Positions 7,947 through 35,990 of a DNA stretch of 64,000 nt are shown in pieces. The notes under the pieces were generated by a model. That model searched no databases and was not told the DNA's origin. It worked only from the letters and a program-made list of their open reading frames with translations. Where the stretch lies: contig CP011215.1 of NCBI GenBank assembly GCA_001029775.1, positions 618,303 to 682,302 on the forward strand, in the 5' to 3' direction. Made by a program: the position numbers and the translations under genes. The stretch comes from Candidatus Campbellbacteria bacterium GW2011_OD1_34_28. GTDB taxonomy: Bacteria; Patescibacteriota; Minisyncoccia; Phycocordibacterales; UBA12079. Every line of letters starts with the position of its first letter. Within the stretch, counting starts at the first letter, position 1.

Positions 7947-8058
7947 AATTTCTAGTTTATAGTTTTTAGTCCTTAGTTTTTAGAAACGAAGAAACAAACT
8001 ATTTTATTTAAATTAATTTAATAAGCTTCAACAATAATATCACAAGATGACAAAAATT

Positions 8059-8085
8059 AAAAAAGTCGCCGAAGCGACTTTTGTG
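8059..8085 (-). terminator. Terminator with a cUUCGg tetraloop on the minus strand. Nearly identical to the hairpin at 14307-14334.
   Basis: Minus strand reads GTCGC-TTCG-GCGAC followed by TTTTTT. It lies immediately 3' of ORF 8088-9254 and matches the 14307 copy at 23 of 24 positions. Confidence 0.75.
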
Positions 8086-8087
8086 CA

Positions 8088-9254
8088 TTAATCAGTATTC
8101 CAAACTTTAAAAAATAAATATACCAAAATAAAGATTATCAAAAGAATGACCAACCAAATCCACCAAGGACTGTCTGAAAAGAAACCACCTGCCATAGCAA
8201 CATTTTTTAAATTGTCAGAAGCAGAAAAAGAACTCGTTGAAACGGTAGTGGTAGTACTTGTGACTTGTCCATTATTATCTTTATCATTTAAAATAAGAGT
8301 CCCCCCATCGGTCAATTTCATAACTAAATCCAAATCGTTGTCTGATAAACCTTCGTGAAAACCAGAATATCCTGAAAAATATCTTTCTTCCTCTGCACCC
8401 AATTTTTGATTGATTTCTTCTTCGGTCAACATTTTAAAACTATGTTCTATTCCAACTGTTGCAGGTGAAGCATGAGAAACGGCTCTATAATAATAAGTTT
8501 TTCCAGCCTCCAGATCAGCCAACAAAACCGAGTGATTCAAAACTTTTACCAAATCCTCGCTCGTGCCATAAGGATATCCATAATTAGGAAGTGATAAATC
8601 TAGAGAATAATTTTGTCCCTCCTCTCTGTAAATTACTTGACTCGTAGAGAGATAACTTGTGTTCCATTGAATTACCACGGAATCAAGATTTAACAAAATA
8701 CTTGTTTCATTCTTTATGGTCAAACCGCGTGGTGCACTTCCTCCTCCCCCACCAGCGCCAGAATTTACAAACACTCCTCCCTGAAAACCAATCAATAGAT
8801 CAAAAGTTGAGGAAAGTGATTGATATTCGTTCTCTTTTTCAGGAAGGAATGTAACAATAAAATCGTATTCGGCACTAGATCCATTATTTAAATTACCCAA
8901 ATTAATTTCGTCGCCATTCAAAAAATCCTCCAAAGAACCATTGAACAATTCGTTGTCCTCTCTTTTAATAATTAAATTTATGGCCTCTGACAAACAAGGT
9001 GTTTTATCGCAAGAGTTTGAATTAATTGCGGAAACAACAACAGTTTGAGATTTGCCAAGAGTATTTGTAACTTTTATATATTTTGTAACAGACTCACCTG
9101 GAATAAAATTTATTTCAGAAAAGAGCGGTGTACTTTCAAACTCTACGTCTAAACCATTTTCGGCATAAACAATATTACTAGTACCAAAAAACAAAGCAAT
9201 GAAGAAAATTATTATATTCAATTTTATTTTTAAAACTTTCATATTATTCTTCAT
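8088..9254 (-). CDS. Secreted, C-terminally membrane-anchored protein (388 aa) with a Gly-rich linker. Last gene of the TasA/SipW-like operon.
   Basis: N-terminal signal peptide, a GAGGGGGS linker, a Ser/Thr-rich stalk, and a C-terminal TM helix (WWIWLVILLIIFILVYLFF). Confidence 0.6.
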   Translation of the reverse strand: MKNNMKVLKIKLNIIIFFIALFFGTSNIVYAENGLDVEFESTPLFSEINFIPGESVTKYIKVTNTLGKSQTVVVSAINSNSCDKTPCLSEAINLIIKREDNELFNGSLEDFLNGDEINLGNLNNGSSAEYDFIVTFLPEKENEYQSLSSTFDLLIGFQGGVFVNSGAGGGGGSAPRGLTIKNETSILLNLDSVVIQWNTSYLSTSQVIYREEGQNYSLDLSLPNYGYPYGTSEDLVKVLNHSVLLADLEAGKTYYYRAVSHASPATVGIEHSFKMLTEEEINQKLGAEEERYFSGYSGFHEGLSDNDLDLVMKLTDGGTLILNDKDNNGQVTSTTTTVSTSSFSASDNLKNVAMAGGFFSDSPWWIWLVILLIIFILVYLFFKVWNTD

Positions 9255-10617
9255 TATTATTTAAATCTTCTTCATCTTCAGAATTAACAGGAATAATATC
9301 CTCTTGTTTAATAAGTACAACATCGTCACCCAACAAAAGAACAGGGTCAGTTTCGGTTACTTCCTCTTTCTTTTCATTTATTTCTTTTTGTTTAGACTCA
9401 AGTTCGGGTTCGGGTTCTGGTTCAACCTCTACTACTATAGGTTCTTCAACAAAAACATCTTTCTTATTTTCTTCCGAAACATCTTCTTCAAGATTATTTG
9501 CGACAAATTGAATATTCTCAATGACAACATTGTGTGGATTTGTTCCCGGATTTGGACCAACTGGTGTTGACCCATCATAAGTATCCATCCAATCATCCGC
9601 CGTGTTAGTATCAATTCCTTTTTCTTTTCTTGAAATCGAATGTCCCAAAATCACGGCTGAGACAGACGGATTGAAAGCGGTAATATTGTCACCCCAACTA
9701 ACTGAATCAATCAAATTATTTTCATCATCATAAAGCATAAGGACATCACCATTATCATCCAGACCGTCGTCAAACATTTTTGTTCCACCCAAAGCAATCT
9801 TGAAAGCATTGTCTGGAATATCTGGCCAATATGCCCAAGTAGAAGCATTTGCGGCAATCACAACAAACTGGTGTGATTCTATTATGTAATTTTGATTTAT
9901 TAGTTCACTATTATCTTCATTGTTTAAATACCATTTCTTAATATTAACTTCGTGATCACAAACATTATAAAGCTCTATCCACTCATCGTTTGGATTGTTT
10001 TCAAAACCATTTGCACCTTCTCTAATTCCTGGGTAATAATAAACCTCGTTAATCTTTATACAAGATTCTGGTACAGGTTCAGGAGTTAATTCATCAATAA
10101 ATACCGTATTAGAAACATCTTCTTCATCACTAAAACCTCCCACGCCATACTCGGGAAAATCTTCTTGCCACCCCTGATAGACAAAATTGAAATCGCAATA
10201 ACCATAAGAATTTTCTCTTGCTTCTAATTGAAATTGCCAAATCCCCAAACTAGTTGTTGCATAAGAAAAATCATTTATATAACCATTGTAAACTTGGACA
10301 CCGTTTAAATTAGCCACCAAAATTAAATTTTCACACAGACGATTCCTGTCACCAAATTCTGGTAAAATCTTGTATTTAAAATCTAAACTACCTTCATTTT
10401 TTATTTCTATACTGGTGCTGGCAGAACTTAACATATTAGAGTTTTCAAAACCATTTCCAATTAAAACAAAATCCAGAGATGCGACAGAAAAATTGATTTT
10501 GGAAGACTCTACATCACTGTGATAAGCATAAACTTTAACCGCAACAAAAGAAAAGGAAATCTGAATAATCAAAGACAAAACTGTGTAACTTATTATTTTT
10601 TTAGTTAAAGTTTTCAT
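9244..10617 (-). CDS. Secreted lamin-tail-domain (LTD) protein with an acidic low-complexity C-terminus (457 aa).
   Basis: INEVYYYP...NDEWIELYN...VNIKKWYL matches the LTD signature. Signal peptide present. The C-terminus is EPEPEPE/EEK-rich. Confidence 0.6.
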   Translation of the reverse strand: MKTLTKKIISYTVLSLIIQISFSFVAVKVYAYHSDVESSKINFSVASLDFVLIGNGFENSNMLSSASTSIEIKNEGSLDFKYKILPEFGDRNRLCENLILVANLNGVQVYNGYINDFSYATTSLGIWQFQLEARENSYGYCDFNFVYQGWQEDFPEYGVGGFSDEEDVSNTVFIDELTPEPVPESCIKINEVYYYPGIREGANGFENNPNDEWIELYNVCDHEVNIKKWYLNNEDNSELINQNYIIESHQFVVIAANASTWAYWPDIPDNAFKIALGGTKMFDDGLDDNGDVLMLYDDENNLIDSVSWGDNITAFNPSVSAVILGHSISRKEKGIDTNTADDWMDTYDGSTPVGPNPGTNPHNVVIENIQFVANNLEEDVSEENKKDVFVEEPIVVEVEPEPEPELESKQKEINEKKEEVTETDPVLLLGDDVVLIKQEDIIPVNSEDEEDLNNNEE

Positions 10618-10626
10618 AAATATTTT

Positions 10627-11142
10627 TTATGTATTACTCTTTTTTGTTTTTTTTATCTCTTTCCATATTTTTTTGGATTCATCATAAACAATTATTACGC
10701 CTGGGATTATAATCAAAATTGCGAAACCAAAAGGTTTTCTTGCTTCTTGAACAACATAACCAGCATAAGGTAAACTAAACAAAACTTTTCCAATTACATC
10801 TTCTTTCGGGACATCTTTTGGGTCTTTGTCATCGTTGGCGTCTCCTTTTGTTATGTAATAATAATCCCCTTCTATCACTTTTATATCTACAATCCTGTGG
10901 GTGATAGGGGTCTCACTTTTATAAACATCACCAAAAGTTATAACATCACCTACCTGATAATCATCACTCGGTTTTATTACAGCTACACTTCCCGTCTTTA
11001 TTGCCGGCTCCATTGATCCAGACTGTACAACTCTTAATTCATAGTTACCTGTTATGGGGAAAATTGATGCAATCATGAGAACAGCCATTAAAAATATCGC
11101 GAAGACAACTATGTAATAAATGATTTTAATTAACTTATTCAT
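10627..11142 (-). CDS. sipW: Type I signal peptidase of the SipW/Sec11 (S26B) type (171 aa).
   Basis: N-terminal TM helix, the SGSMEP catalytic Ser motif, and ITHRIV (His). It sits directly downstream of two SipW-cognate-signal proteins. Confidence 0.8.
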   Translation of the reverse strand: MNKLIKIIYYIVVFAIFLMAVLMIASIFPITGNYELRVVQSGSMEPAIKTGSVAVIKPSDDYQVGDVITFGDVYKSETPITHRIVDIKVIEGDYYYITKGDANDDKDPKDVPKEDVIGKVLFSLPYAGYVVQEARKPFGFAILIIIPGVIIVYDESKKIWKEIKKTKKSNT

Positions 11143-11266
11143 ATCTTTGTAACGGACTTTGTTAAAGCCTTTATTGACCGCCCGAACTTACCTCACAGTT
11201 CAAGCGGTCTAAAAAGTTTCAAACTTTTTAAAAGAGAATCGAAATTAGAAATTAGTGTTTCTAGTA

Positions 11267-12568
11267 CTAATCTAGTTCCTCTTCGTCTAGGTTGATATTT
11301 TCACAAGAGAAGTTCTCATTGTTTCTTACTTGTTCCGCGTAAGCAGTCAGACTTGCTTCAAGCGAATCTGATTGCGCGTCATCAAGCATTCCACTTCCAT
11401 CACAATTAATTTCTCCTGTTGTGTGATTTACTTGGATATCTCCGGCACACCAAGCAAAGCCTACATATCCTGTTGGGCCACCTCCCGCAAGTGACATCTG
11501 AATAACTTCTGTTTGGATATTTCCCTCATACAGACTATCCTCTGTATTAGGTTCATAAACGCCATCGCCGTCATCTTCCCAAGCAAAAATATTGATGTAA
11601 TCGGAAAGCTCCCCTAAACCTGCAGGATTTCCGCTGGTAAGGGTATCTCCTACACTTTCTTCTGTTTCAAGAAGCTCATTTTCTTCATCATTCATGTCAT
11701 GTATTATCAAACATGCGTAAGCATCATTTGAATTGACATGTAAAGAAATTAGGTTTGTTCCCCAATCAGATGGTTTTACATCCCCAAAATTGAAGAATTT
11801 TTGTGATCCGTCAAGATCAGTTTCTCTCCAAAGTTGACAAGCTTTTTTGAATTCACTATTTGCGTCACAGTCTTCTGCATCGCGAGTAACAGTGAGGTAG
11901 TAAAGCAAGCCTCCTGGATTATTAAGTGGGGTGTTGTATGCAGGATTAGTTTGGGTTAAATTAGTTACAACAAATGTAAGTGTGTTTTCACCCGGTACAA
12001 CCTGCGCCAAGAATGACGCTTCTGATACAGGGTCAAGTGTTGTATATTGAGCACTTCCCGAACCAGCTGAAATGGATACTCCGTTTAGGAATAATTCATA
12101 TTGGTTATCAGCTGCAACATCCATCACTAAATCAACACTAACAGCATCACCCCACCAATCGAATTCATGTTCAAAGGTGTAAGTAACATTGCCATCTGTA
12201 CCATCATCACCAACTAAAGTAGCTGGAGAAGCCCAAATCCATTGTGCTGTTGGATGGGTTGTCCAATACTGGAGAGTAATGGGTGTATCAATTACGATAG
12301 GAGCTTGAAATGGAAATACTGTAATTTCTGTATTAACACCAGAAACAACATCTGCTCCACCATCGCCACTGAAAAGTACCAGTGAGCATGATTCACAGTC
12401 ATCGCCATTATAAGTTTGTGCCAAATGATCTACTTTGAGGTCAATAGATCCGGCAGTGAATATGTTTCCTGCCGAGGTTTCTGTGTCATTGAAGAAAGCA
12501 TAAGTTCCTCCAATAATCACCGCCCCGGCCAAAACAATCGTGCCTAGGCTAAAAATTATTTTTTTCAT
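11267..12568 (-). CDS. TasA/camelysin-like secreted protein with a SipW-cognate class signal peptide, paralog 2 (433 aa).
   Basis: N-terminal ...GGTYAFFNDTETSAGNIFTAGSIDL is the classic SipW-cognate motif (AFFxDTETS..N.FtaG.lDL). Shares the KFFNFxDxKPxDxGxNxISLHV and C-terminal Y.EQ.RNN.F.C blocks with ORF 12596-13753. Confidence 0.75.
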   Translation of the reverse strand: MKKIIFSLGTIVLAGAVIIGGTYAFFNDTETSAGNIFTAGSIDLKVDHLAQTYNGDDCESCSLVLFSGDGGADVVSGVNTEITVFPFQAPIVIDTPITLQYWTTHPTAQWIWASPATLVGDDGTDGNVTYTFEHEFDWWGDAVSVDLVMDVAADNQYELFLNGVSISAGSGSAQYTTLDPVSEASFLAQVVPGENTLTFVVTNLTQTNPAYNTPLNNPGGLLYYLTVTRDAEDCDANSEFKKACQLWRETDLDGSQKFFNFGDVKPSDWGTNLISLHVNSNDAYACLIIHDMNDEENELLETEESVGDTLTSGNPAGLGELSDYINIFAWEDDGDGVYEPNTEDSLYEGNIQTEVIQMSLAGGGPTGYVGFAWCAGDIQVNHTTGEINCDGSGMLDDAQSDSLEASLTAYAEQVRNNENFSCENINLDEEELD

Positions 12569-12595
12569 GTTTTTAAGTTAGCTTTAGTCTGATAA

Positions 12596-13753
12596 TTACA
12601 GATCTGAATCTGTGTATGTTATGAGATTTAACTCAAACAAAGATTCTATTCCCACTGGCCATGTGGTTACGCTATTAGTTCCTGAGTTATATTCTGATGA
12701 TTTTATTACCCAGATTTTTGCACCTCCTGGATAATTAGCATCGGCTGAATCAGGAAGATTCATTCCCAAATTTACATCTCCTGAAACACTGGCATCACCA
12801 CTGCCGTCAGTTGTCAGTGTTCCGATTAATGCGCCTGGATTATTTCCTGGCCATCCATCAGCATAATAGATGATACTGTATTGAGTTGAAGCAACTAAAC
12901 CAGATACATCTAATGTGTAGTTAAATGTTGGGTGAGACGAAATGAAAGTTAATTCTCCTTCAACCCCATCATCTAGATAAGGATCCCATGTACCATCAAT
13001 ATCTTTGTTTTCTAATTTAAGAACAGTTCTCACTGGTTCTTGATTGTTTATACTTCCACAGACAAATTCATCATTGTTTCTTGCTTGTTCAACATAGAAA
13101 CTAATGTCACCTGTCATACTATCTGTTTGGATTTCGTTTCCAACTGATGCTGGAACACTCCATGAAACACCAATGTATGTAGTAGATGCTCCTGTCAATG
13201 GACCTGTTGCTGTTGTTGAGTCATAGATAGACAAAACACCATTGGCAGGATTACCTGATGTCAATGTTTGTTCACTTCCGTTTTGAATATTGTCGCCTGC
13301 AACCCCACCGCCTGCGCCATTATCTCTCCAGACGTTCCAAACCATAACACTTGATAGTTCACCATCGTTTACGCCAGTAGTTAAATCTACTGAAGCTTCT
13401 GGTTCTGTTTGACCGTTTTCAAGATCAGTCAAATTGGAAACTTCTGCACAAACCCAAGCGTCATTATTGATAACATGCAAACTGATGGTATTCTCTCCAG
13501 AATCCCCTGGTTTTATGTCATCAAAATTAAAGAACTTATCCGATGTTGGGATTAGATCTTTTTCTGCCCAAGTTGCGGCTTCAACATCCTCTCCATTATA
13601 GGTAGCAGTGCTATCTATTCTTAGATCGATTGCCCCAGCCGTAAAGGTGTTTCCTGTAGACGTTTCAGTGTCACTAAAGAAAGCGCCTGTAGCTCCAATA
13701 ATTATCGCTGCTGCTGCGACAATTGTCGAAGCACTAATGATTATTTTTTTCAT
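12596..13753 (-). CDS. TasA/camelysin-like secreted protein with a SipW-cognate class signal peptide, paralog 1 (385 aa).
   Basis: N-terminal ...GATGAFFSDTETSTGNTFTAGAIDL. Paralog of ORF 11267-12568. Confidence 0.75.
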   Translation of the reverse strand: MKKIIISASTIVAAAAIIIGATGAFFSDTETSTGNTFTAGAIDLRIDSTATYNGEDVEAATWAEKDLIPTSDKFFNFDDIKPGDSGENTISLHVINNDAWVCAEVSNLTDLENGQTEPEASVDLTTGVNDGELSSVMVWNVWRDNGAGGGVAGDNIQNGSEQTLTSGNPANGVLSIYDSTTATGPLTGASTTYIGVSWSVPASVGNEIQTDSMTGDISFYVEQARNNDEFVCGSINNQEPVRTVLKLENKDIDGTWDPYLDDGVEGELTFISSHPTFNYTLDVSGLVASTQYSIIYYADGWPGNNPGALIGTLTTDGSGDASVSGDVNLGMNLPDSADANYPGGAKIWVIKSSEYNSGTNSVTTWPVGIESLFELNLITYTDSDL

Positions 13754-13989
13754 AATTTTAATAAATTAAATTAGTTTATAAGTTTATATTTATTTGCCAT
13801 TTATATTAAATATAAAAAATGTCTTATTTTACTTTTTGTCTTTAGTTGTTTTTTATTTATTTTTTTATTTACATAGTTTTTTAAAAAAAATTAAGATTGA
13901 TAATTCTCGACCTTTCTTATTACAGACAATAAATATGTAAGTTTTTATTGAATGCAAAAAAGACTCTTTTAAAGAGCTTCTAGAATTAC

Positions 13990-14085
13990 TGAGGTAGATT
14001 GCCGAGGTAGAATTACCAAAAGCGTGCCAGCGTGGAATGAGGTAGAGAGTGAGAGGTAGAGTGCTTGAGGTAGAGTGACTGAGTA
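13990..14085. repeat. Five direct copies of GAGGTAGA (iteron-like) within about 90 bp.
   Basis: ctGAGGTAGAttgccGAGGTAGAatt...atGAGGTAGAgagtgaGAGGTAGAgtgcttGAGGTAGAgtgactGAGTAGAta. Confidence 0.8.
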
Positions 14086-14212
14086 GATATTTTTTTAATT
14101 AACCTAATATCAATTATATAGATATATACCTGTATATGTCAACTTTAAAAATGTATATTTTTTGTAATCAAAAAAACCTTATTTAAAAGCTTTTTTAGGC
14201 TTATACAAAAAG

Positions 14213-14524
14213 TTATCCACAGTTTTTAAACTTGAGTTATCCACAGTTTAAAAACTGTGGATAACTTAAAAAACGTCGTTGAATTTAAATTATTTTTAGA
14301 AAAATGAAAAAAGCCGCCGAAGCGACTTTTTTCAATGTAGATATTAATCCGAAAATTAATATCTACATTGTATCCACAGATCCGAAAATCTACGGATACA
14401 ATGTAGATATAAAACCGAAATTTTATATCTACAGCGTACTTACTAGTCCGAAGATTAGTAAGTACATTTCTATCTTAACCAATTGAGATAATTTGTCAAT
14501 ACTTTTTCGATTAACTGTGGATAA
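14213..14524. promoter_or_regulatory. Cluster of DnaA boxes (TTATCCACA). Perfect 9-mers at 14213-14221 (+), 14237-14245 (+), 14256-14264 (-) and 14516-14524 (-). One 8/9 box (gTATCCACA) at 14370-14378.
   Basis: Boxes 2 and 3 form a perfect palindrome AGTTATCCACAGTTTaaAAACTGTGGATAACT. Four perfect copies of a single 9-mer within 312 bp is far above chance in 64 kb. Confidence 0.7.
14307..14466. repeat. Array of five tandem hairpins with a conserved CCGAA(A/G) loop (UUCG-type loop on the minus strand) and variable stems.
   Basis: H0 GCCGC-cgaa-GCGAC; H1 ATGTAGATATTAAT-ccgaaa-ATTAATATCTACAT; H2 TATCCACAGAT-ccgaaa-ATCTACGGATA; H3 TGTAGATATAAAA-ccgaaa-TTTTATATCTACA; H4 TACTTACTAG-tccgaag-ATTAGTAAGTA. 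Confidence 0.8.
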
Positions 14525-14556
14525 CTTGGAAACAATTAATTTAAAAGGTTGGCTTA

Positions 14557-14910
14557 TTATTCTTCCTCTTTAAGTTTAGCTGCAGCTTCTGGCGTTGATA
14601 CCGTTTTACTGATCAGAAATAAACGGACAATTGCATAAGCGATTATCCAATACACCAGCATTGCCAAAAGAGTTGTCCACTCAAAGACGCTACCCTCTAG
14701 AGTTGTCTGTGGGAATACTGCAAGAAAAGGAGCAGTAAATGGCCGTGTAATACCGTAGATAAAACTTGTGAATCCAGCTACAGGATTTGCCCCCATAAAT
14801 TTGAGTGCAAAACGGAACGCAAGCAATATTTCAAGAAGAGAAAGAACATACCACACAATTTGTGTGCCTTTAAATAAAGGTTTCGTAGTGGGAGAATTAT
14901 ATGAGTCCAT
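14557..14910 (-). CDS. Small integral membrane protein, possibly YggT/Ycf19 family (117 aa).
   Basis: Three or four predicted TM segments. Weak similarity to YggT. Low confidence on family. Confidence 0.4.
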   Translation of the reverse strand: MDSYNSPTTKPLFKGTQIVWYVLSLLEILLAFRFALKFMGANPVAGFTSFIYGITRPFTAPFLAVFPQTTLEGSVFEWTTLLAMLVYWIIAYAIVRLFLISKTVSTPEAAAKLKEEE

Positions 14911-15194
14911 AATTTTGAATGTTAAATGTTAATAAAATATATTTTTAATTAAATTATTAATTATTGTTAGTCTTCAAATATCGACCTTTTTAAAAATTGA
15001 TAGTTAAAAAATTTTTTCCCAAAATTAAGTGCTGTTCGAGCCGATATTCTTATCCGTTTCTTTGGTGTTTTTTAATTTAAGGATTTTAGTTTTAAATTTT
15101 TGACAAATTTCTTGTTATCGAAAATGGAGAGGTGTATTAGAGCTACTTTAAGAATACCACCGCAAAATCTAAAAGTCACGGAGTTTAAAAACTG

Positions 15195-15610
15195 AGAGAG
15201 GAATCGGTCACGAGTCACTAAATATATTTAGTGCTCGCGATATTGTTCTGTGGATTATAAGAGAGGAATCGTCCCGCGGTTACTAAGTAAATTTTTCGCA
15301 AGCTCAAATTTACTAAGTACCGCTGGACGCGACTCAAAATTATGCTCCCAGCATAATTTTTCCGTCGTTCGATTCCTCTTTGGTCCTACAAAATCAAAAG
15401 CCCCGATGTTTTCACATCGGGACTTAAGATTTTGTGGAGAGGAATCGGCTCCCAGTTCTAAACAAAAATATGGACCAGAGAGGAATCGGTCACGAGTCAC
15501 TAAGTCTTTTGTTCATTCTTCGCTTCGCTACGAACTCCAAAAGCCTAAGTGCTCGCGACCCCGGCTCGTCTGTTTTGCTTCGCAAAACATGACTCCGCCT
15601 TTCGATTCCT
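15195..15610. repeat. Multiple partial copies of the tRNA-Ala 3' end (T-arm plus acceptor, core GAGAGGAATCG), in both orientations.
   Basis: Copies at about 15195, 15259, 15436 and 15471 share up to 19 nt with the tRNA 3' end. Inverted copies (TTCGATTCCTC) lie at about 15368 and 15597. Associated motifs GTCACGAGTCAC and TAGTGCTCGCGA each occur twice. Confidence 0.8.
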
Positions 15611-15654
15611 CACGAAAGCAAAGCAGTTTGCTTTCTTCTGGCACAGCAACACAA

Positions 15655-15688
15655 AATAAAACACCATCTAAAAAAGATGGTGTTTTAT
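15655..15688 (-). terminator. Terminator immediately 3' of tRNA-Ala.
   Basis: AAAACACCATC taaaaaa GATGGTGTTTT. Confidence 0.7.
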
Positions 15689-15698
15689 TTTGGTTGTG

Positions 15699-15772
15699 TG
15701 GACCAGAGAGGAATCGAACCCCCGGCCTCCTCAGTGCAAGTGAGGCGCTCTAGCCAACTGAGCTACTGGCCC
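15699..15772 (-). tRNA. tRNA-Ala (anticodon UGC), 74 nt, CCA not encoded.
   Basis: Cloverleaf deduced manually. Acceptor GGGCCAG/CUGGUCC with the G3:U70 Ala identity pair. D-arm GCTC-AGTTGGCTA-GAGC. Anticodon arm CCTCA-CTTGCAC-TGAGG. T-arm GGGGG-TTCGATT-CCTCT. Confidence 0.85.
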
Positions 15773-15868
15773 ATACTATTTAAGAATTTTCTTCATTGAA
15801 TAAACTCAATACACAGTATTTTATAACAAAGATGTCTATAAATCAATATCAAATTTATTTATAATTTT

Positions 15869-18503: not shown

Positions 18504-19607
18504 TTAAATCGTAAAATCTTTTATTGAGTATAAATCGGATTCATCTTCTTTTGGCTGTTGATCTGGAACACTCTCCGCCATAACATCGTCTTTGTCCCAA
18601 TCTGTCTCCTCTATCATTGTCTTTTCTTCTTGTGTCGGAATCATTGCTTCTTCTTCTGTGGCAATATTTTCTGCAACAACATTTTCCGCAACAACATCCA
18701 AATCATTACCTTCGGGAACTGTCTCAACAATTCCATTTGTCTTTATATAATTGTCCAACATTTCATAAGGATTTTTCTTTTCATTTGAGTGAACAAGTTC
18801 TAGAATCTTTCTCAAATCTTCATTAGAAAAGAAATCTATTGTCAATTTGCCTCCGACTTCCCTTCTCTCAATTTGTACTCTTGTGCCCAAAGATTCTGAC
18901 AATTGTCCCTCCAATTCTACCATCTCTGGATCAGGGGGAAGATATCTTTTTCTGATTTTGTCATGAGCAATTTTTCTTGCGATTGCTTCTGCATCACGAA
19001 CTGTCAATTTTTTAAAGACAATTTCTTTAAACAAAGTATCTTGTTCTTCCGGTCTATCTTTCAACATCAGAATTGGTCTAGCGTGTCCTTCGGTAATCTG
19101 TCCTGCAGAAATTGCTTTTTGCATTTCATCTGGAAGTGTCAAAAGTCTTAAACTGTTTGAAACATATTCCCTACTTTTTCCTACTTTTTTTGCAACTTCA
19201 TTGTGCTTAAAACCAAATTCTTCTGTTAGTCTATGGAAAGCCAACGCTCTGTCGATCGGGTTAAGATCTTCTCTCTGCAAGTTTTCAATAATTGCCAATT
19301 CAAGTTTTGCTCCTTCGTCTTGATCTCCTTCTCTAATGATTACTGGCACTTGTGACAAACCCGCCAATTTTGATGCTCGCAATCTTCTTTCTCCTGCGAT
19401 CAATTCGTATTCTGCCATCAAACCGCCGTCTGGTTTTTGTATTTCATACCGTGTTACAACGAGAGGTTGAAGCACCCCATACTGACGGATTGAATCCGCC
19501 AAAAGTTTAAGCTTATCCTCGCTAAATTCTTTTCTTGGCTGATATGGATTTGGTTTTATTTTTTCTACTTCAATCCAAAAGATTGAATCATTTTGAAATT
19601 TTGACAT
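18504..19607 (-). CDS. parB: Chromosome partitioning protein ParB/Spo0J with an acidic C-terminal extension (367 aa).
   Basis: ParB box GERRLRASKLAGL, an HTH, and an N-terminal ...KIKPNPYQPR.... No parA lies adjacent. Confidence 0.9.
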   Translation of the reverse strand: MSKFQNDSIFWIEVEKIKPNPYQPRKEFSEDKLKLLADSIRQYGVLQPLVVTRYEIQKPDGGLMAEYELIAGERRLRASKLAGLSQVPVIIREGDQDEGAKLELAIIENLQREDLNPIDRALAFHRLTEEFGFKHNEVAKKVGKSREYVSNSLRLLTLPDEMQKAISAGQITEGHARPILMLKDRPEEQDTLFKEIVFKKLTVRDAEAIARKIAHDKIRKRYLPPDPEMVELEGQLSESLGTRVQIERREVGGKLTIDFFSNEDLRKILELVHSNEKKNPYEMLDNYIKTNGIVETVPEGNDLDVVAENVVAENIATEEEAMIPTQEEKTMIEETDWDKDDVMAESVPDQQPKEDESDLYSIKDFTI

Positions 19608-19843: not shown

Positions 19844-19892
19844 CAATCAATCATAATTTAGCGTGAGCACGACTCGCTGCTAGTCAAATTTG

Positions 19893-19937
19893 CGTGTCTC
19901 GCAAGGGATGGGAGTTCGACTCTCCCCCTCGGCACCA
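19893..19937 (+). pseudogene. Tandem duplicate of the 3' 45 nt of tRNA-Leu (variable arm, T-arm, acceptor and CCA). It lacks a matching 5' half.
   Basis: CGTGTCTCGCAAGGGATGGGAGTTCGACTCTCCCCCTCGGCACCA is identical to the 3' portion of the upstream tRNA. No GCCGAGG acceptor 5' strand precedes it. Confidence 0.8.
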
Positions 19938-35339: not shown

Positions 35340-35440
35340 ACAAATATTATACCACCAAAAAACCCGAATTAAACATTTTACTTTTTCAAAATTTTTGTTA
35401 ATATTGTATCTGTTAAGTTAATACAGGACTTAATAACATT

Positions 35441-35460
35441 CCGCGGTAGCTCAGTTGGCT
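35441..35460 (+). repeat. Duplicate of the first 19-20 nt of tRNA-Asn (TCCGCGGTAGCTCAGTTGG), followed by a non-tRNA sequence.
   Basis: Identical to 35625-35643. No cloverleaf can be formed downstream. Confidence 0.75.
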
Positions 35461-35624: not shown

Positions 35625-35697
<73 letters not shown>

Positions 35698-35744
35698 CAA
35701 AAACGATTAAGTCCCAATATGCAATATTGGGGCTTTTTCGTTTT

Positions 35745-35930
35745 CTTTCGCGGCAGGACTCGAACCGAGCGAAGTATGAAGGAGCGACTGAAAGGAGCGA
35801 CGAACACGAGCGAGCGGGGGTCGAGAGTTCTTAGTGAAATTGAGTCCCGAAGGGCAAAAATTTCACTTAGAACTGGCGACCAAGTCCTGCCCGCTCTGAA
35901 CTAAAAACCGGCGACCGAGTCCTACCCACA
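35745..35930. repeat. Degenerate partial copies of the tRNA-Asn 3' half. An inverted copy CGCGGCAGGACTCGAACC lies at about 35745-35770. Direct fragments GTCCTGCCCGC and GAGTCCTACCC lie at about 35878-35925.
   Basis: Matches the tRNA T-arm/acceptor sequence on both strands. ORFs 35541-35834, 35583-35807 and 35719-35904 over this region are judged spurious. Confidence 0.7.
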
Positions 35931-35990
35931 AAACAAAATACAAACAAAAAATCCCCAACATCATTGGGGATTTTTAAATAAAATTTAGAT

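What the first reader, a model, noticed from the sequence alone, without database searches (positions are those of the whole stretch)
15195..15772. tRNA-Ala(UGC) followed by at least six partial copies of its own 3' end in both orientations within 500 bp
On the tRNA strand, downstream of tRNA-Ala, the motif (CC)AGAGAGGAATCG occurs four times in tRNA orientation and twice inverted. The motif is the T-loop 3' half plus the acceptor 3' strand. The GTCACGAGTCAC and TAGTGCTCGCGA modules are also duplicated.

Repeated 3'-end duplicates are the footprint left by serial integration and excision of site-specific integrative elements at a tRNA attB, although no integrase remains in the window. They could also reflect tRNA-fragment-derived small RNAs.

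The same pattern recurs at the Leu and Asn loci, so it appears to be genome-wide behaviour.
Basis: seen in the sequence. Interest (0 to 1): 0.6.

Follow-up and report, generated by a model that had tools for sequence, protein, structure and literature searches.

The report
Structured tRNA-tail repeat cassettes in Patescibacteria
The repeated tRNA-Ala tail fragments are real, but they are the two arms of a conserved, folded ~130-base module that sits behind many different tRNA genes in one group of ultra-small bacteria, varies in copy number, marks inserted gene cassettes, and matched nothing in Rfam or in my literature searches.

Summary
The 11-mer of the tRNA-Ala 3' end occurs 7 times in 15196-15716, against 0.7 expected in the whole 64 kb. 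Four extra copies are direct and two are inverted.

The fragments are not loose scars. On the tRNA strand they form repeated cassettes: tRNA positions 57-73, a terminator hairpin, an L arm (the reverse complement of the tRNA tail), hairpin hp2, hairpin hp1, then an R arm (the next tail copy). The L and R arms close a three-way junction.

A covariance model finds more than 60 such units in Paceibacteria genomes and metagenomes. Nearly all lie 24-130 nt downstream of a tRNA, covering 16 amino-acid types, with arms that match that tRNA. Pairing is kept in 91% of cells, and 21 of 24 pairs show compensatory changes. The tRNA-sense strand folds better in 55 of 56 units. The DNA mini-hairpin motif GCGNAGC occurs 28 times on the sense strand and never on the antisense strand.

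Units are patchy (about 24% of tRNAs), differ in copy number between near-identical populations, are better conserved than flanking genes, and bracket cargo genes. No recombinase was found and no Rfam family matches.

Best reading: non-autonomous integrative cassettes whose attachment site is a folded single strand. A structured RNA is not excluded.

The parts
15698..15772 (-). tRNA-Ala(UGC). Its positions 56/57-73 (window 15699-15716) are the sequence copied in every arm.
   Evidence: ARAGORN; Rfam tRNA 66.9 bits
15637..15707 (-). Long palindrome centred on terminator 1 (terminator hairpin 15652-15692). The tRNA acceptor 3' strand pairs with GTGCCAGA (15637-15644), the acceptor part of the L arm of cassette A.
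   Evidence: Inverted repeat I1, 33-nt arms, 79% complementary; coordinates
15612..15636 (-). hp0, a small hairpin with a CTGC loop that splits the L arm of unit A between its acceptor part and its T-stem part.
   Evidence: Sequence and coordinates. The same arrangement occurs in L014 Trp, L040 Leu, L078 Leu and L084 His.
15471..15615 (-). Unit A. L arm 15601-15611, hp2 15563-15599, hp1 15488-15560, R arm 15471-15488 (18 of 18 nt identical to the tRNA tail, ending at the discriminator base).
   Evidence: Covariance-model hit 15475-15615, 104.6 bits. Three-way-junction fold of -63.5 kcal/mol, z = -5.6. 91% identical to L014. Absent from L007.
15436..15462 (-). Remnant of an older cassette: the 3' half of an hp1 (TTTAGAACTGGGAGC, 15448-15462) followed by a truncated R arm (CGATTCCTCTCC, 15436-15447).
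   Evidence: Homologous remnants occur in L014 and L007.
15388..15435 (-). Terminator 2, a long hairpin with a T-run on the tRNA strand. This terminator type also precedes units in L004, L011, L015 and L021.
   Evidence: Terminator scan; inverted repeat I2
15255..15386 (-). Unit B. Full-length L arm 15367-15386 (reverse complement of the tRNA tail, 1 mismatch), hp2 15330-15367, hp1 15271-15328, R arm 15260-15271 (12 nt).
   Evidence: Covariance-model hit 15258-15382, 116 bits. Fold of -55.4 kcal/mol, z = -7.5. Its counterpart in L007 shows two compensatory double changes in hp1.
15192..15240 (-). Truncated last unit: hp1 only (15207-15240), followed by an R arm (15195-15206).
   Evidence: A partial covariance-model hit to the equivalent piece is found in L004.
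35709..35975 (+). The same module behind tRNA-Asn (35625-35698). Order: terminator 35709-35744, L arm 35750-35766, hp1 35819-35881, R arm 35882-35894, remnant 35908-35929, second terminator 35946-35975.
   Evidence: Covariance-model hit 35750-35894, 86 bits; fold z = -5.6; coordinates

Best explanation
The region is a head-to-tail array of small, non-autonomous integrative cassettes that live at the 3' end of tRNA genes in Paceibacteria (Patescibacteria).

**What a cassette contains**
- A replacement tRNA tail, from T-loop position 56/57 to the discriminator base.
- Its own terminator hairpin.
- The reverse complement of that tail (the L arm).
- Two conserved hairpins, hp2 and hp1.

**How it is proposed to work**
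- When the tRNA-sense strand is single-stranded, the L arm pairs with a tail copy. That copy can be the cassette's own or the next R arm.
- This pairing makes a duplex replica of the tRNA gene's T-arm and acceptor segment, held on a three-way junction.
- I propose that this folded structure is the attachment site used by a recombinase encoded elsewhere. The comparison is with integron attC sites and the folded attP of phage CTX.
- Each insertion restores the tRNA and pushes the previous tail downstream as an R arm. The array then decays by deletion and changes by unequal crossing-over and inversion between the repeats.

**Shown**
- The anatomy, the covarying structure and the strand bias.
- The association with tRNA genes.
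- Patchiness, copy-number polymorphism, cargo genes, and higher conservation than the flanking genes.

**Inferred**
- That the folded form is DNA rather than RNA.
- That a site-specific recombinase acts on it.
- The order of insertion events.
For: **Anatomy and significance:**

**Family**
- The covariance model finds 53 units at E < 1e-5 and 12 more at E < 1e-3 in the other metagenome loci.
- They sit 24-130 nt downstream of a tRNA on the same strand.
- R arms are 12-21 nt identical to that tRNA's tail.

**Structure**
- 90.8% of cells are paired, against 67% when shuffled and about 35% when the partner is slid.
- 21 of 24 pairs have compensatory changes, and 0 of 500 shuffles reach the observed score.

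**Single-strand signature**
- The sense strand folds better in 55 of 56 units with RNA parameters and in 54 of 56 with DNA parameters.
- GCGNAGC occurs 28 times on the sense strand and 0 times on the antisense strand, with about 2 expected.
- GCGNAGC is the extraordinarily stable DNA mini-hairpin. Its RNA counterparts are much less stable (PMC13037366).

**Mobility**
- Unit A is absent from close relative L007.
- Unit A is 91% identical to L014, where the adjacent gene is 67% identical. Unit B is 86% identical to L004, where genes are 69-74% identical.
- L014 and L133 are more than 99% identical yet differ by exactly one cassette at tRNA-Lys and at tRNA-Trp.
- Only 25 of 104 tRNAs carry a unit.

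**Cargo**
- Fic, TrmB, NTPase, NT5C and unknown ORFs lie between a tRNA and a unit, or between units.

**Other**
- A terminator precedes nearly every unit, and there is no promoter-like spacer. This argues against a dedicated RNA gene.
- R arms copy the gene, not the mature tRNA: CCA appears only where the gene encodes it.
Against: - **No recombinase.** No recombinase, transposase or HUH nuclease was found in about 90% of the window. None appeared among 150 ORFs within 4 kb of units, although only the 25 commonest families were visible.
- **Arms always match the local tRNA.** The same hp2-hp1 core occurs at different tRNAs with both arms matching the local tRNA: L048 Ser and L066 Val, L070 Ala and window Asn, L007 Ala and L014 Trp. 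Simple integration of a cassette carrying its donor's tail does not explain this.
- **Simpler cause for copy-number changes.** These could come from unequal crossing-over alone.
- **Selection could explain the conservation.** High conservation could reflect purifying selection on a function rather than transfer.
- **RNA remains compatible.** The purine-rich internal loops (GGA/GAG) and the strand bias fit an RNA equally well.
- **No free element.** No excised circle or autonomous master element was seen. Two pattern scans of viral contigs gave only chance hits, and similarity searches of phage and plasmid records gave no match.
Confidence: 0.45

Rival explanations
1. A structured non-coding RNA made by read-through from the tRNA. 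The L and R arms form a 12-17 bp helix with the same 3' strand and discriminator base as the tRNA's acceptor/T-stem stack, carried on a three-way junction. The RNA would act as a mimic or decoy of the tRNA minihelix for tRNA-processing, tRNA-modifying or tRNA-cleaving enzymes, or would act on the tRNA tail through the complementary L arm.
For: - Strong covariation.
- Sense-strand bias, with 78 G-U pairs against 38.
- Conserved purine-rich internal loops, GGA/GAG in hp2 and GAG/GAA in hp1.
- The R arm ends at the discriminator base and is usually followed by a terminator, as a tRNA gene is.
- Tight, same-strand linkage to tRNAs of 16 types.
Against: - An intrinsic terminator lies between the tRNA and almost every unit. 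No promoter-like sequence fits in the 4-10 nt before the L arm.
- Only about 24% of tRNAs have a unit.
- Many copies are truncated.
- The enriched loop motif GCGNAGC is special in DNA, not in RNA.
- No Rfam family matches, even at E <= 10.
Confidence: 0.3
2. Plain decayed att-site scars. Ordinary integrase-carrying islands or prophages integrated repeatedly at tRNA-Ala and were lost. The hairpins are leftover arm-type binding regions of attP with no function of their own.
For: - Direct tail repeats start in the T-loop, the classical sublocation for tRNA att sites. Examples are Ms6 (PMC1762012) and tycheposon arrays of partial tRNAs (bioRxiv 10.1101/2020.12.28.424599).
- Copies become progressively more truncated with distance from the tRNA.
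Against: - Scars should not keep a covarying structure across 16 tRNA types and many genera.
- Scars should not include a matched inverted arm in nearly every unit.
- Scars should not be better conserved than the neighbouring genes.
- No integrase or integrase fragment lies next to any unit examined.
Confidence: 0.12
3. A REP/REPIN-like or IS200/IS605-type miniature palindromic element that moves as single-stranded DNA through a single-copy HUH transposase encoded elsewhere. It would insert next to the T-loop motif GTTC, so the R arm would simply be flanking target DNA.
For: - Imperfect hairpins with conserved bulges, strand bias and stable DNA mini-hairpin loops.
- No adjacent transposase, as with REPINs.
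- The insertion point is always after T-loop position 55/56.
Against: - Such elements do not carry a copy of the target and its reverse complement.
- Insertion into a T-loop would split the tRNA unless the element supplies the matching tail.
- Units are found only at tRNAs and are not dispersed through intergenic regions (none elsewhere in the 64 kb).
Confidence: 0.08

Closest known systems
tRNA-targeting genomic islands and their partial-tRNA arrays, such as Prochlorococcus tycheposons (bioRxiv 10.1101/2020.12.28.424599) and T-loop integrating phages such as Ms6 (PMC1762012)
   Same: - Direct repeats of the tRNA 3' part.
- Identity starts in the T-loop and runs to the tRNA end.
- The tRNA is restored after insertion.
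- Successive insertions push older repeats away from the tRNA.
- Accessory or defence-type cargo genes.
- Associated inversions and copy-number changes.
   Different: - No integrase lies in or near the elements.
- Most cassettes are only about 150-260 nt and carry no gene.
- Each carries an inverted copy of the tail plus two conserved hairpins that together form a covarying three-way junction.
- One module family serves 16 tRNA types.
Integron gene cassettes and their attC sites (from established knowledge)
   Same: - Arrays of small, promoterless cassettes.
- Each ends in an imperfect palindrome of about 60-140 nt.
- The structure of the palindrome is conserved but its sequence is not.
- Only one strand folds.
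- Bulged bases are present, and the recombinase is not inside the cassette.
   Different: - There is no RYYYAAC/GTTRRRY core.
- No IntI gene, attI site or Pc promoter was seen.
- The outer helix is a copy of the adjacent tRNA tail.
- The arrays sit at many tRNA genes rather than at one platform.
Folded single-stranded attP of phage CTX and other Xer-exploiting elements (from established knowledge: Val et al. 2005)
   Same: - Two inverted copies of the target sequence lie about 40-100 nt apart.
- They pair in single-stranded DNA to give a forked hairpin.
- That hairpin mimics the duplex chromosomal target.
- The recombinase is supplied by the host.
   Different: - The target here is a tRNA gene tail, not dif.
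- No phage genome is attached.
- Xer dependence is untested.
REP/REPIN elements mobilised by RAYT transposases, and G4-type single-strand initiation signals
   Same: - Short, strand-specific, hairpin-rich, non-coding repeats without their own enzyme.
- GCGNAGC-type mini-hairpins also occur in single-stranded DNA priming signals (PMC13037366).
   Different: - REPINs are dispersed and do not copy their target.
- Priming signals are not linked to tRNA genes.
- Neither has tRNA-specific arms.

Membership tests
tRNA-integrating site-specific-recombinase islands (att scars) | Direct repeats of the tRNA 3' segment that flank the inserted DNA, with identity starting in a tRNA loop and running to the tRNA 3' end | tested here: met
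   R arms start at tRNA position 55-57 and end at the discriminator base, with 12-21 nt identical.
tRNA-integrating site-specific-recombinase islands (att scars) | An integrase gene inside or next to the element | tested here: not met
   No recombinase Pfam family appears in the window annotation, in 10 cargo ORFs, or among the commonest families of 150 ORFs near units.
tRNA-integrating site-specific-recombinase islands (att scars) | Presence/absence polymorphism and cargo between the repeats in relatives | tested here: met
   Unit A is absent in L007. L014 and L133 differ by one cassette. Cargo is present in L084, L017, L040, L078 and L021.
Integron cassette / attC | An imperfect palindrome whose structure is conserved but whose sequence is not, functional on one strand | tested here: met
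   Covariation; sense-strand bias in 55 of 56 units.
Integron cassette / attC | R''/R' core sites RYYYAAC ... GTTRRRY | tested here: not met
   The ends of the unit are ..ATTCGAA(C) and (C)GAATCC.., taken from the T-loop. They do not fit the consensus.
Integron cassette / attC | An IntI integrase with attI and the Pc promoter at the head of the array | tested here: not met
   The head of every array is a tRNA gene, and no integrase is nearby. Whole genomes could not be inspected.
CTX-type folded attP (IMEX) | Inverted copies of the target that pair in single-stranded DNA to mimic the duplex target | tested here: inconclusive
   The geometry is present: the L arm pairs with a tail copy. That it acts as DNA is inferred only from GCGNAGC enrichment.
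CTX-type folded attP (IMEX) | The target is dif and the recombination is carried out by XerCD | tested here: not met
   The target sequence here is a tRNA tail, so the dif part of the feature is not met. The enzyme involved cannot be tested with these tools.
Known structured RNA families (Rfam 15) | A match to a curated covariance model | tested here: not met
   Only the three tRNAs reach the gathering score. At E <= 10 nothing meaningful covers the units.
REP/REPIN or IS200/IS605 miniature elements | Copies dispersed in intergenic regions, plus an HUH transposase gene in the genome | tested here: not met
   In 64 kb the hp1 motif occurs only at the tRNA-Ala and tRNA-Asn loci. No transposase was seen, but the rest of the genome was not examined.

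The most novel reading that the evidence does not exclude
Paceibacteria carry an undescribed cassette system that uses tRNA genes as platforms. The attachment site is a folded single strand that rebuilds a duplex copy of whichever tRNA tail it sits behind. The system is serviced by a recombinase that acts at the near-palindromic T-loop core (TTCGAA), so one enzyme could serve every tRNA. It would then be an integron-like gene-capture system built on tRNA genes, in bacteria with very small genomes.
Probability: 0.25. Interest if true: 0.85.

Novelty: new variant of a known kind. Interest (0 to 1): 0.68.

Why it matters
Patescibacteria have tiny genomes, and little is known about how they acquire genes. 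Here, about a quarter of the tRNA genes sampled carry a conserved folded module. That module marks where small gene cassettes come and goes: toxin-like Fic proteins, regulators, nucleotidases and secreted proteins.

If the module is a single-strand recombination site, it defines a new route of gene capture. It also points to a recombinase with an unusual, programmable-looking target, the tail of any tRNA gene. If the module is an RNA, it is a new class of tRNA mimic.

In either case the covariance model built here lets the family be mapped across genomes.

Tried and rejected
- **Known RNA family.** Rejected: Rfam at gathering score and at E <= 10 finds only tRNAs and chance hairpin matches.
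- **Protein-coding.** The 167-aa ORF at 15250-15753 runs through the tRNA and the hairpins and is spurious.
- **Phage att site.** Two motif scans of viral contigs gave nothing, or chance hits inside coding sequence. Searches against phage and plasmid records found no match.
- **Retro-copy of mature tRNA, or a primer-binding site of a retroelement.** Rejected: R arms lack CCA unless the gene encodes it, and no reverse transcriptase is nearby.
- **L arm as a copy of the tRNA 5' strand.** Rejected for most units. The L arm is the exact complement of the 3' strand, including the discriminator base, where the tRNA itself has G-U pairs.
- **Self-cleaving ribozyme cores** (hammerhead, twister and others). 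No motif and no Rfam signal.
- **Cargo island in the window bounded by a second tail copy.** The 6.3 kb absent from L007 has no tRNA fragment at its far end.
- **Metagenome pattern scan.** Only about a quarter of the hits were real units. The rest were chance matches in GC-rich DNA.
- **Literature.** Five full-text searches for a prior description of such a module found none. A sixth search located the tycheposon preprint used for comparison.

Full report
**1. The observation**

tRNA-Ala(UGC) lies on the minus strand at 15698-15772. The 11-mer GAGAGGAATCG is the plus-strand reading of the tRNA's T-loop 3' half plus T-stem 3' strand. Allowing one mismatch, it occurs seven times between 15196 and 15716:
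- once in the tRNA itself;
- four times in tRNA orientation;
- twice inverted.

The whole 64 kb has 8 hits against 0.73 expected, and none of 100 shuffles reached 8. The duplicated GTCACGAGTCAC and AGTGCTCGCGA modules are also there.

**2. Anatomy**

Read on the tRNA strand, the fragments are ordered parts of repeated units.

After the tRNA comes an intrinsic terminator (15652-15692). Its stem extends into a 33-nt palindrome that pairs the tRNA acceptor 3' strand with GTGCCAGA (15637-15644).

Unit A then follows:
- hp0, a small hairpin (15612-15636);
- an L arm that is the reverse complement of the tRNA's T-loop and T-stem (15601-15611);
- hp2 (15563-15599);
- hp1 (15488-15560);
- directly stacked on hp1, an R arm identical to tRNA positions 56-73 (15471-15488).

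Downstream of unit A lie:
- a remnant made of half an hp1 plus a truncated R arm (15436-15462);
- terminator 2 (15388-15435);
- unit B, with a full 20-nt L arm (15367-15386), hp2, hp1 and a 12-nt R arm (15260-15271);
- a last piece consisting only of hp1 and an R arm (15192-15240).

The L and R arms close a three-way junction. The units fold far better than shuffled sequence, with z from -5.6 to -8.7. So the "inverted" copies are the 5' strands of helices whose 3' strands are the "direct" copies.

The tRNA-Asn locus has the same module with Asn-specific arms (35750-35894) and a further remnant.

The tRNA-Leu locus is different. It has a direct copy from the anticodon stem to CCA, with a 17-nt insert in the anticodon loop (19867-19937).

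**3. Origin and relatives**

The window comes from contig DNLU01000003.1 of assembly GCA_003489565.1, a Patescibacteria genome.

Using the neighbouring DUF2914 protein I fetched a close relative (L002/L007, 94% identical protein), a 64% relative (L004), and 80 loci from species-representative Paceibacteria genomes. In these loci:
- 35 of 109 tRNAs have a partial copy of at least 12 nt within 1.5 kb;
- almost all of these copies run from tRNA position 52-57 to the 3' end;
- both direct and inverted copies occur.

Inspection shows the same architecture behind Ala, Leu, His, Cys, Trp, Lys, Ser, Val and Tyr tRNAs.

**4. A family defined by structure**

Fifteen units aligned with a consensus three-way junction. 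I built a covariance model from them. It found:
- 32 units at E below about 1e-4 in the genome loci;
- 26 at E <= 0.01 in the first 80 metagenome loci recovered by a tRNA-independent pattern, and 12 more at E <= 0.001 in the remaining 40.

Nearly all units lie 24-130 nt downstream of a tRNA, or of another unit, on the same strand. Their R arms are 12-21 nt identical to that tRNA's tail. Sixteen tRNA types are represented.

On 49 distinct sequences:
- 90.8% of pair cells are standard pairs, against 67% after shuffling and about 35% when the partner is slid;
- 21 of 24 pairs show changes on both sides;
- no shuffle out of 500 reaches the observed covariation score.

The alignment is fitted to the model, which inflates these numbers somewhat. 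The MAFFT-based alignment gave the same picture.

Conserved details are a GNC...GNC closing helix of hp2 whose middle pair covaries, a GGA/GAG internal loop in hp2, and bulges in hp1.

No Rfam 15 family matches. The literature searches found no prior description of such a module.

**5. Which strand, and DNA or RNA**

The tRNA-sense strand folds more stably than its complement in 55 of 56 units with RNA parameters, and in 54 of 56 with DNA parameters. The structure is therefore used in single-stranded form on the sense strand.

Two observations lean towards DNA:
- The heptamer GCGNAGC occurs 28 times on the sense strand of 47 units, never on the antisense strand, and about twice in shuffles. 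It forms an extraordinarily stable DNA mini-hairpin, and its RNA counterparts are considerably less stable (PMC13037366).
- Almost every unit is preceded by an intrinsic terminator, with only 4-10 nt before the L arm. No room is left for a promoter.

Neither observation is decisive. Read-through RNA remains possible.

**6. Evidence that the units come and go**

- **Gain or loss between close relatives.** L007, whose genes are about 89-92% identical in DNA, lacks unit A and terminator 1. It has unit B directly after its own terminator, and carries the whole tRNA plus unit segment in inverted orientation.
- **Higher conservation than flanking genes.** Window 15437-15773 (tRNA, terminator 1, unit A, remnant) is 91% identical over 338 nt to L014, a Campbellbacteria-labelled genome whose DUF2914 gene is only 67% identical. 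Unit B is 86% identical to L004, whose genes are 69-74% identical.
- **Copy-number difference within a population.** L014 and the metagenome contig L133 are more than 99% identical. They differ by exactly one extra cassette at tRNA-Lys (190-nt period) and one at tRNA-Trp (143-nt period).
- **Patchy distribution.** Only 25 of 104 tRNAs with enough downstream sequence carry a unit: 3 of 26 His, 1 of 12 Val, 0 of 12 Arg.
- **Cargo.**
  - In L084 a 370-aa ORF with no Pfam match lies between tRNA-His and a unit.
  - In L017 the cargo is an NT5C nucleotidase.
  - In L040 and L078 ORFs lie between successive units.
  - In L021 at least four Ala-type units span 6.5 kb with TrmB, Fic and NTPase genes between them.
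- **Shared cores at different tRNAs.** The same hp1 sequence is found at different tRNAs in different genomes: L048 Ser and L066 Val, L070 Ala and window Asn, L007 Ala and L014 Trp. In each case both arms match the local tRNA.

**7. What was not found**

- No integrase, transposase or HUH nuclease appears in the Pfam annotation of window positions about 5.9-64 kb. None appears in ten cargo ORFs, or among the families shared by 150 ORFs within 4 kb of units (where only the 25 commonest families are visible).
- Viral, phage and plasmid collections gave nothing.

**8. Interpretation**

The best-supported reading is an array of non-autonomous cassettes. Each consists of a replacement tail, a terminator, the L arm, hp2 and hp1. 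They are inserted at the T-loop of the cognate tRNA, so the tRNA stays intact and the previous tail is displaced as an R arm.

The tRNA-proximal position of the extra cassette A fits insertion next to the tRNA, as does the progressive truncation of distal copies.

The folded sense strand would present a duplex replica of the tRNA gene's tail on a three-way junction. By analogy with integron attC sites and the folded attP of phage CTX, I propose that this is the substrate of a recombinase encoded elsewhere. I put this reading at about 0.45.

The main rival is a structured RNA that mimics the acceptor/T-stem helix of the tRNA (about 0.3). It explains the covariation, the strand bias and the purine-rich loops equally well. 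It fits poorly with the preceding terminators, the patchiness and the GCGNAGC loops.

Plain decayed att scars (about 0.12) do not explain a covarying structure shared by 16 tRNA types.

A REPIN or IS200-type miniature element (about 0.08) does not explain arms that copy the target.

**9. Open problem**

No model I could formulate explains how one core acquires both a direct and an inverted arm matching each new tRNA.

The T-loop core TTCGAA is itself a palindrome. A recombinase with a symmetric crossover could therefore act in either orientation and on any tRNA. This is an idea, not a result.

In L021 the cargo boundaries lie in the acceptor strand (..CTGG | cargo | GGTCCA-terminator) rather than in the T-loop. 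More than one crossover point, or ordinary recombination between the repeats, may therefore be involved.

**10. Verdict**

- The serial-integration idea is partly right.
- The fragments belong to a conserved structured module that matched no Rfam family and turned up in none of my literature searches.

I rate it a new variant of a known kind (tRNA-targeted integrative DNA), with a real chance that it is an integron-like capture system built on tRNA genes.

Noticed in passing
window 14200-14560 (read on the minus strand): Several perfect DnaA-box sequences (TTATCCACA) lie between the yggT-like gene and the peptidase_M73 genes, including an inverted pair around 14210-14265. parB is at 18504-19607. 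This may be an origin-type or DnaA-regulated region.
   Followed up: no
window ~14310-14505 (minus strand): A promoter-like TTGACA/TAAGAT is followed by four consecutive hairpins, each capped by a UUCG loop, and then a terminator. It looks like a small structured RNA. It is 89% conserved in L002 6127-6414 and has no Rfam match.
   Followed up: partly
window ~7950-14270: About 6.3 kb is absent from close relative L002/L007, together with the yggT-like gene at 14557-14910. It encodes two TasA/peptidase_M73-like proteins, a SipW-like signal peptidase, an LTD-domain protein and other secreted proteins. No tRNA fragment marks its far end.
   Followed up: partly
window 19867-19937; L004 3510-3600 (minus strand); L002 1-200 (minus strand): There are pseudo-copies of tRNA-Leu(CAA) with a 16-17-nt insert in the anticodon loop (GACTC-GCTRYYAGT..TTTG-CGTG). 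In the window it is the 3' two-thirds, lying downstream of the tRNA. In two relatives it is the 5' two-thirds, lying upstream, with a hairpin in the D-loop and, in L002, in tandem. This is a different kind of tRNA-linked repeat.
   Followed up: partly
window 35440-35458 and the following ~165 nt: A 19-nt copy of the tRNA-Asn 5' end lies 185 nt upstream of the tRNA. It is followed by a hairpin and GAGCGAAGCGAG-type motifs, then a second short match (AGAGCGATC) to the D-stem region. 5' duplicates are rare in relatives (4 of 109 tRNAs).
   Followed up: no
L002/L007 5760-6120 versus window 15190-15830: The tRNA-Ala plus unit segment is inverted in the close relative with respect to the DUF2914 gene. 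Recombination between the inverted tail copies could produce this.
   Followed up: partly
L084 7590-7745; L040 1240-1345; L063 and the first unit of L040: A second subfamily of units has a different core (L arm-GAAGACCTT..AAGGT-GTACTGAAnCTGTAAGnTTC-R arm). The covariance model detects it poorly.
   Followed up: partly
L084 6291-7520: The cargo ORF between tRNA-His and its unit has no Pfam match but contains RGDIVH, an Rx4H motif of the HEPN type. It may be a defence or toxin gene.
   Followed up: no
ORFs near units in the 150-protein screen (alignment A3): Two ORFs within 4 kb of units match LAGLIDADG_2 homing endonucleases (best E = 9e-43). I did not check where they lie or whether they sit in rRNA or tRNA introns.
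   Followed up: no
window 15250-15753 (+): A 167-aa open reading frame spans the whole repeat region and part of the tRNA. It is an artefact of the purine-rich repeats and not a gene.
   Followed up: yes
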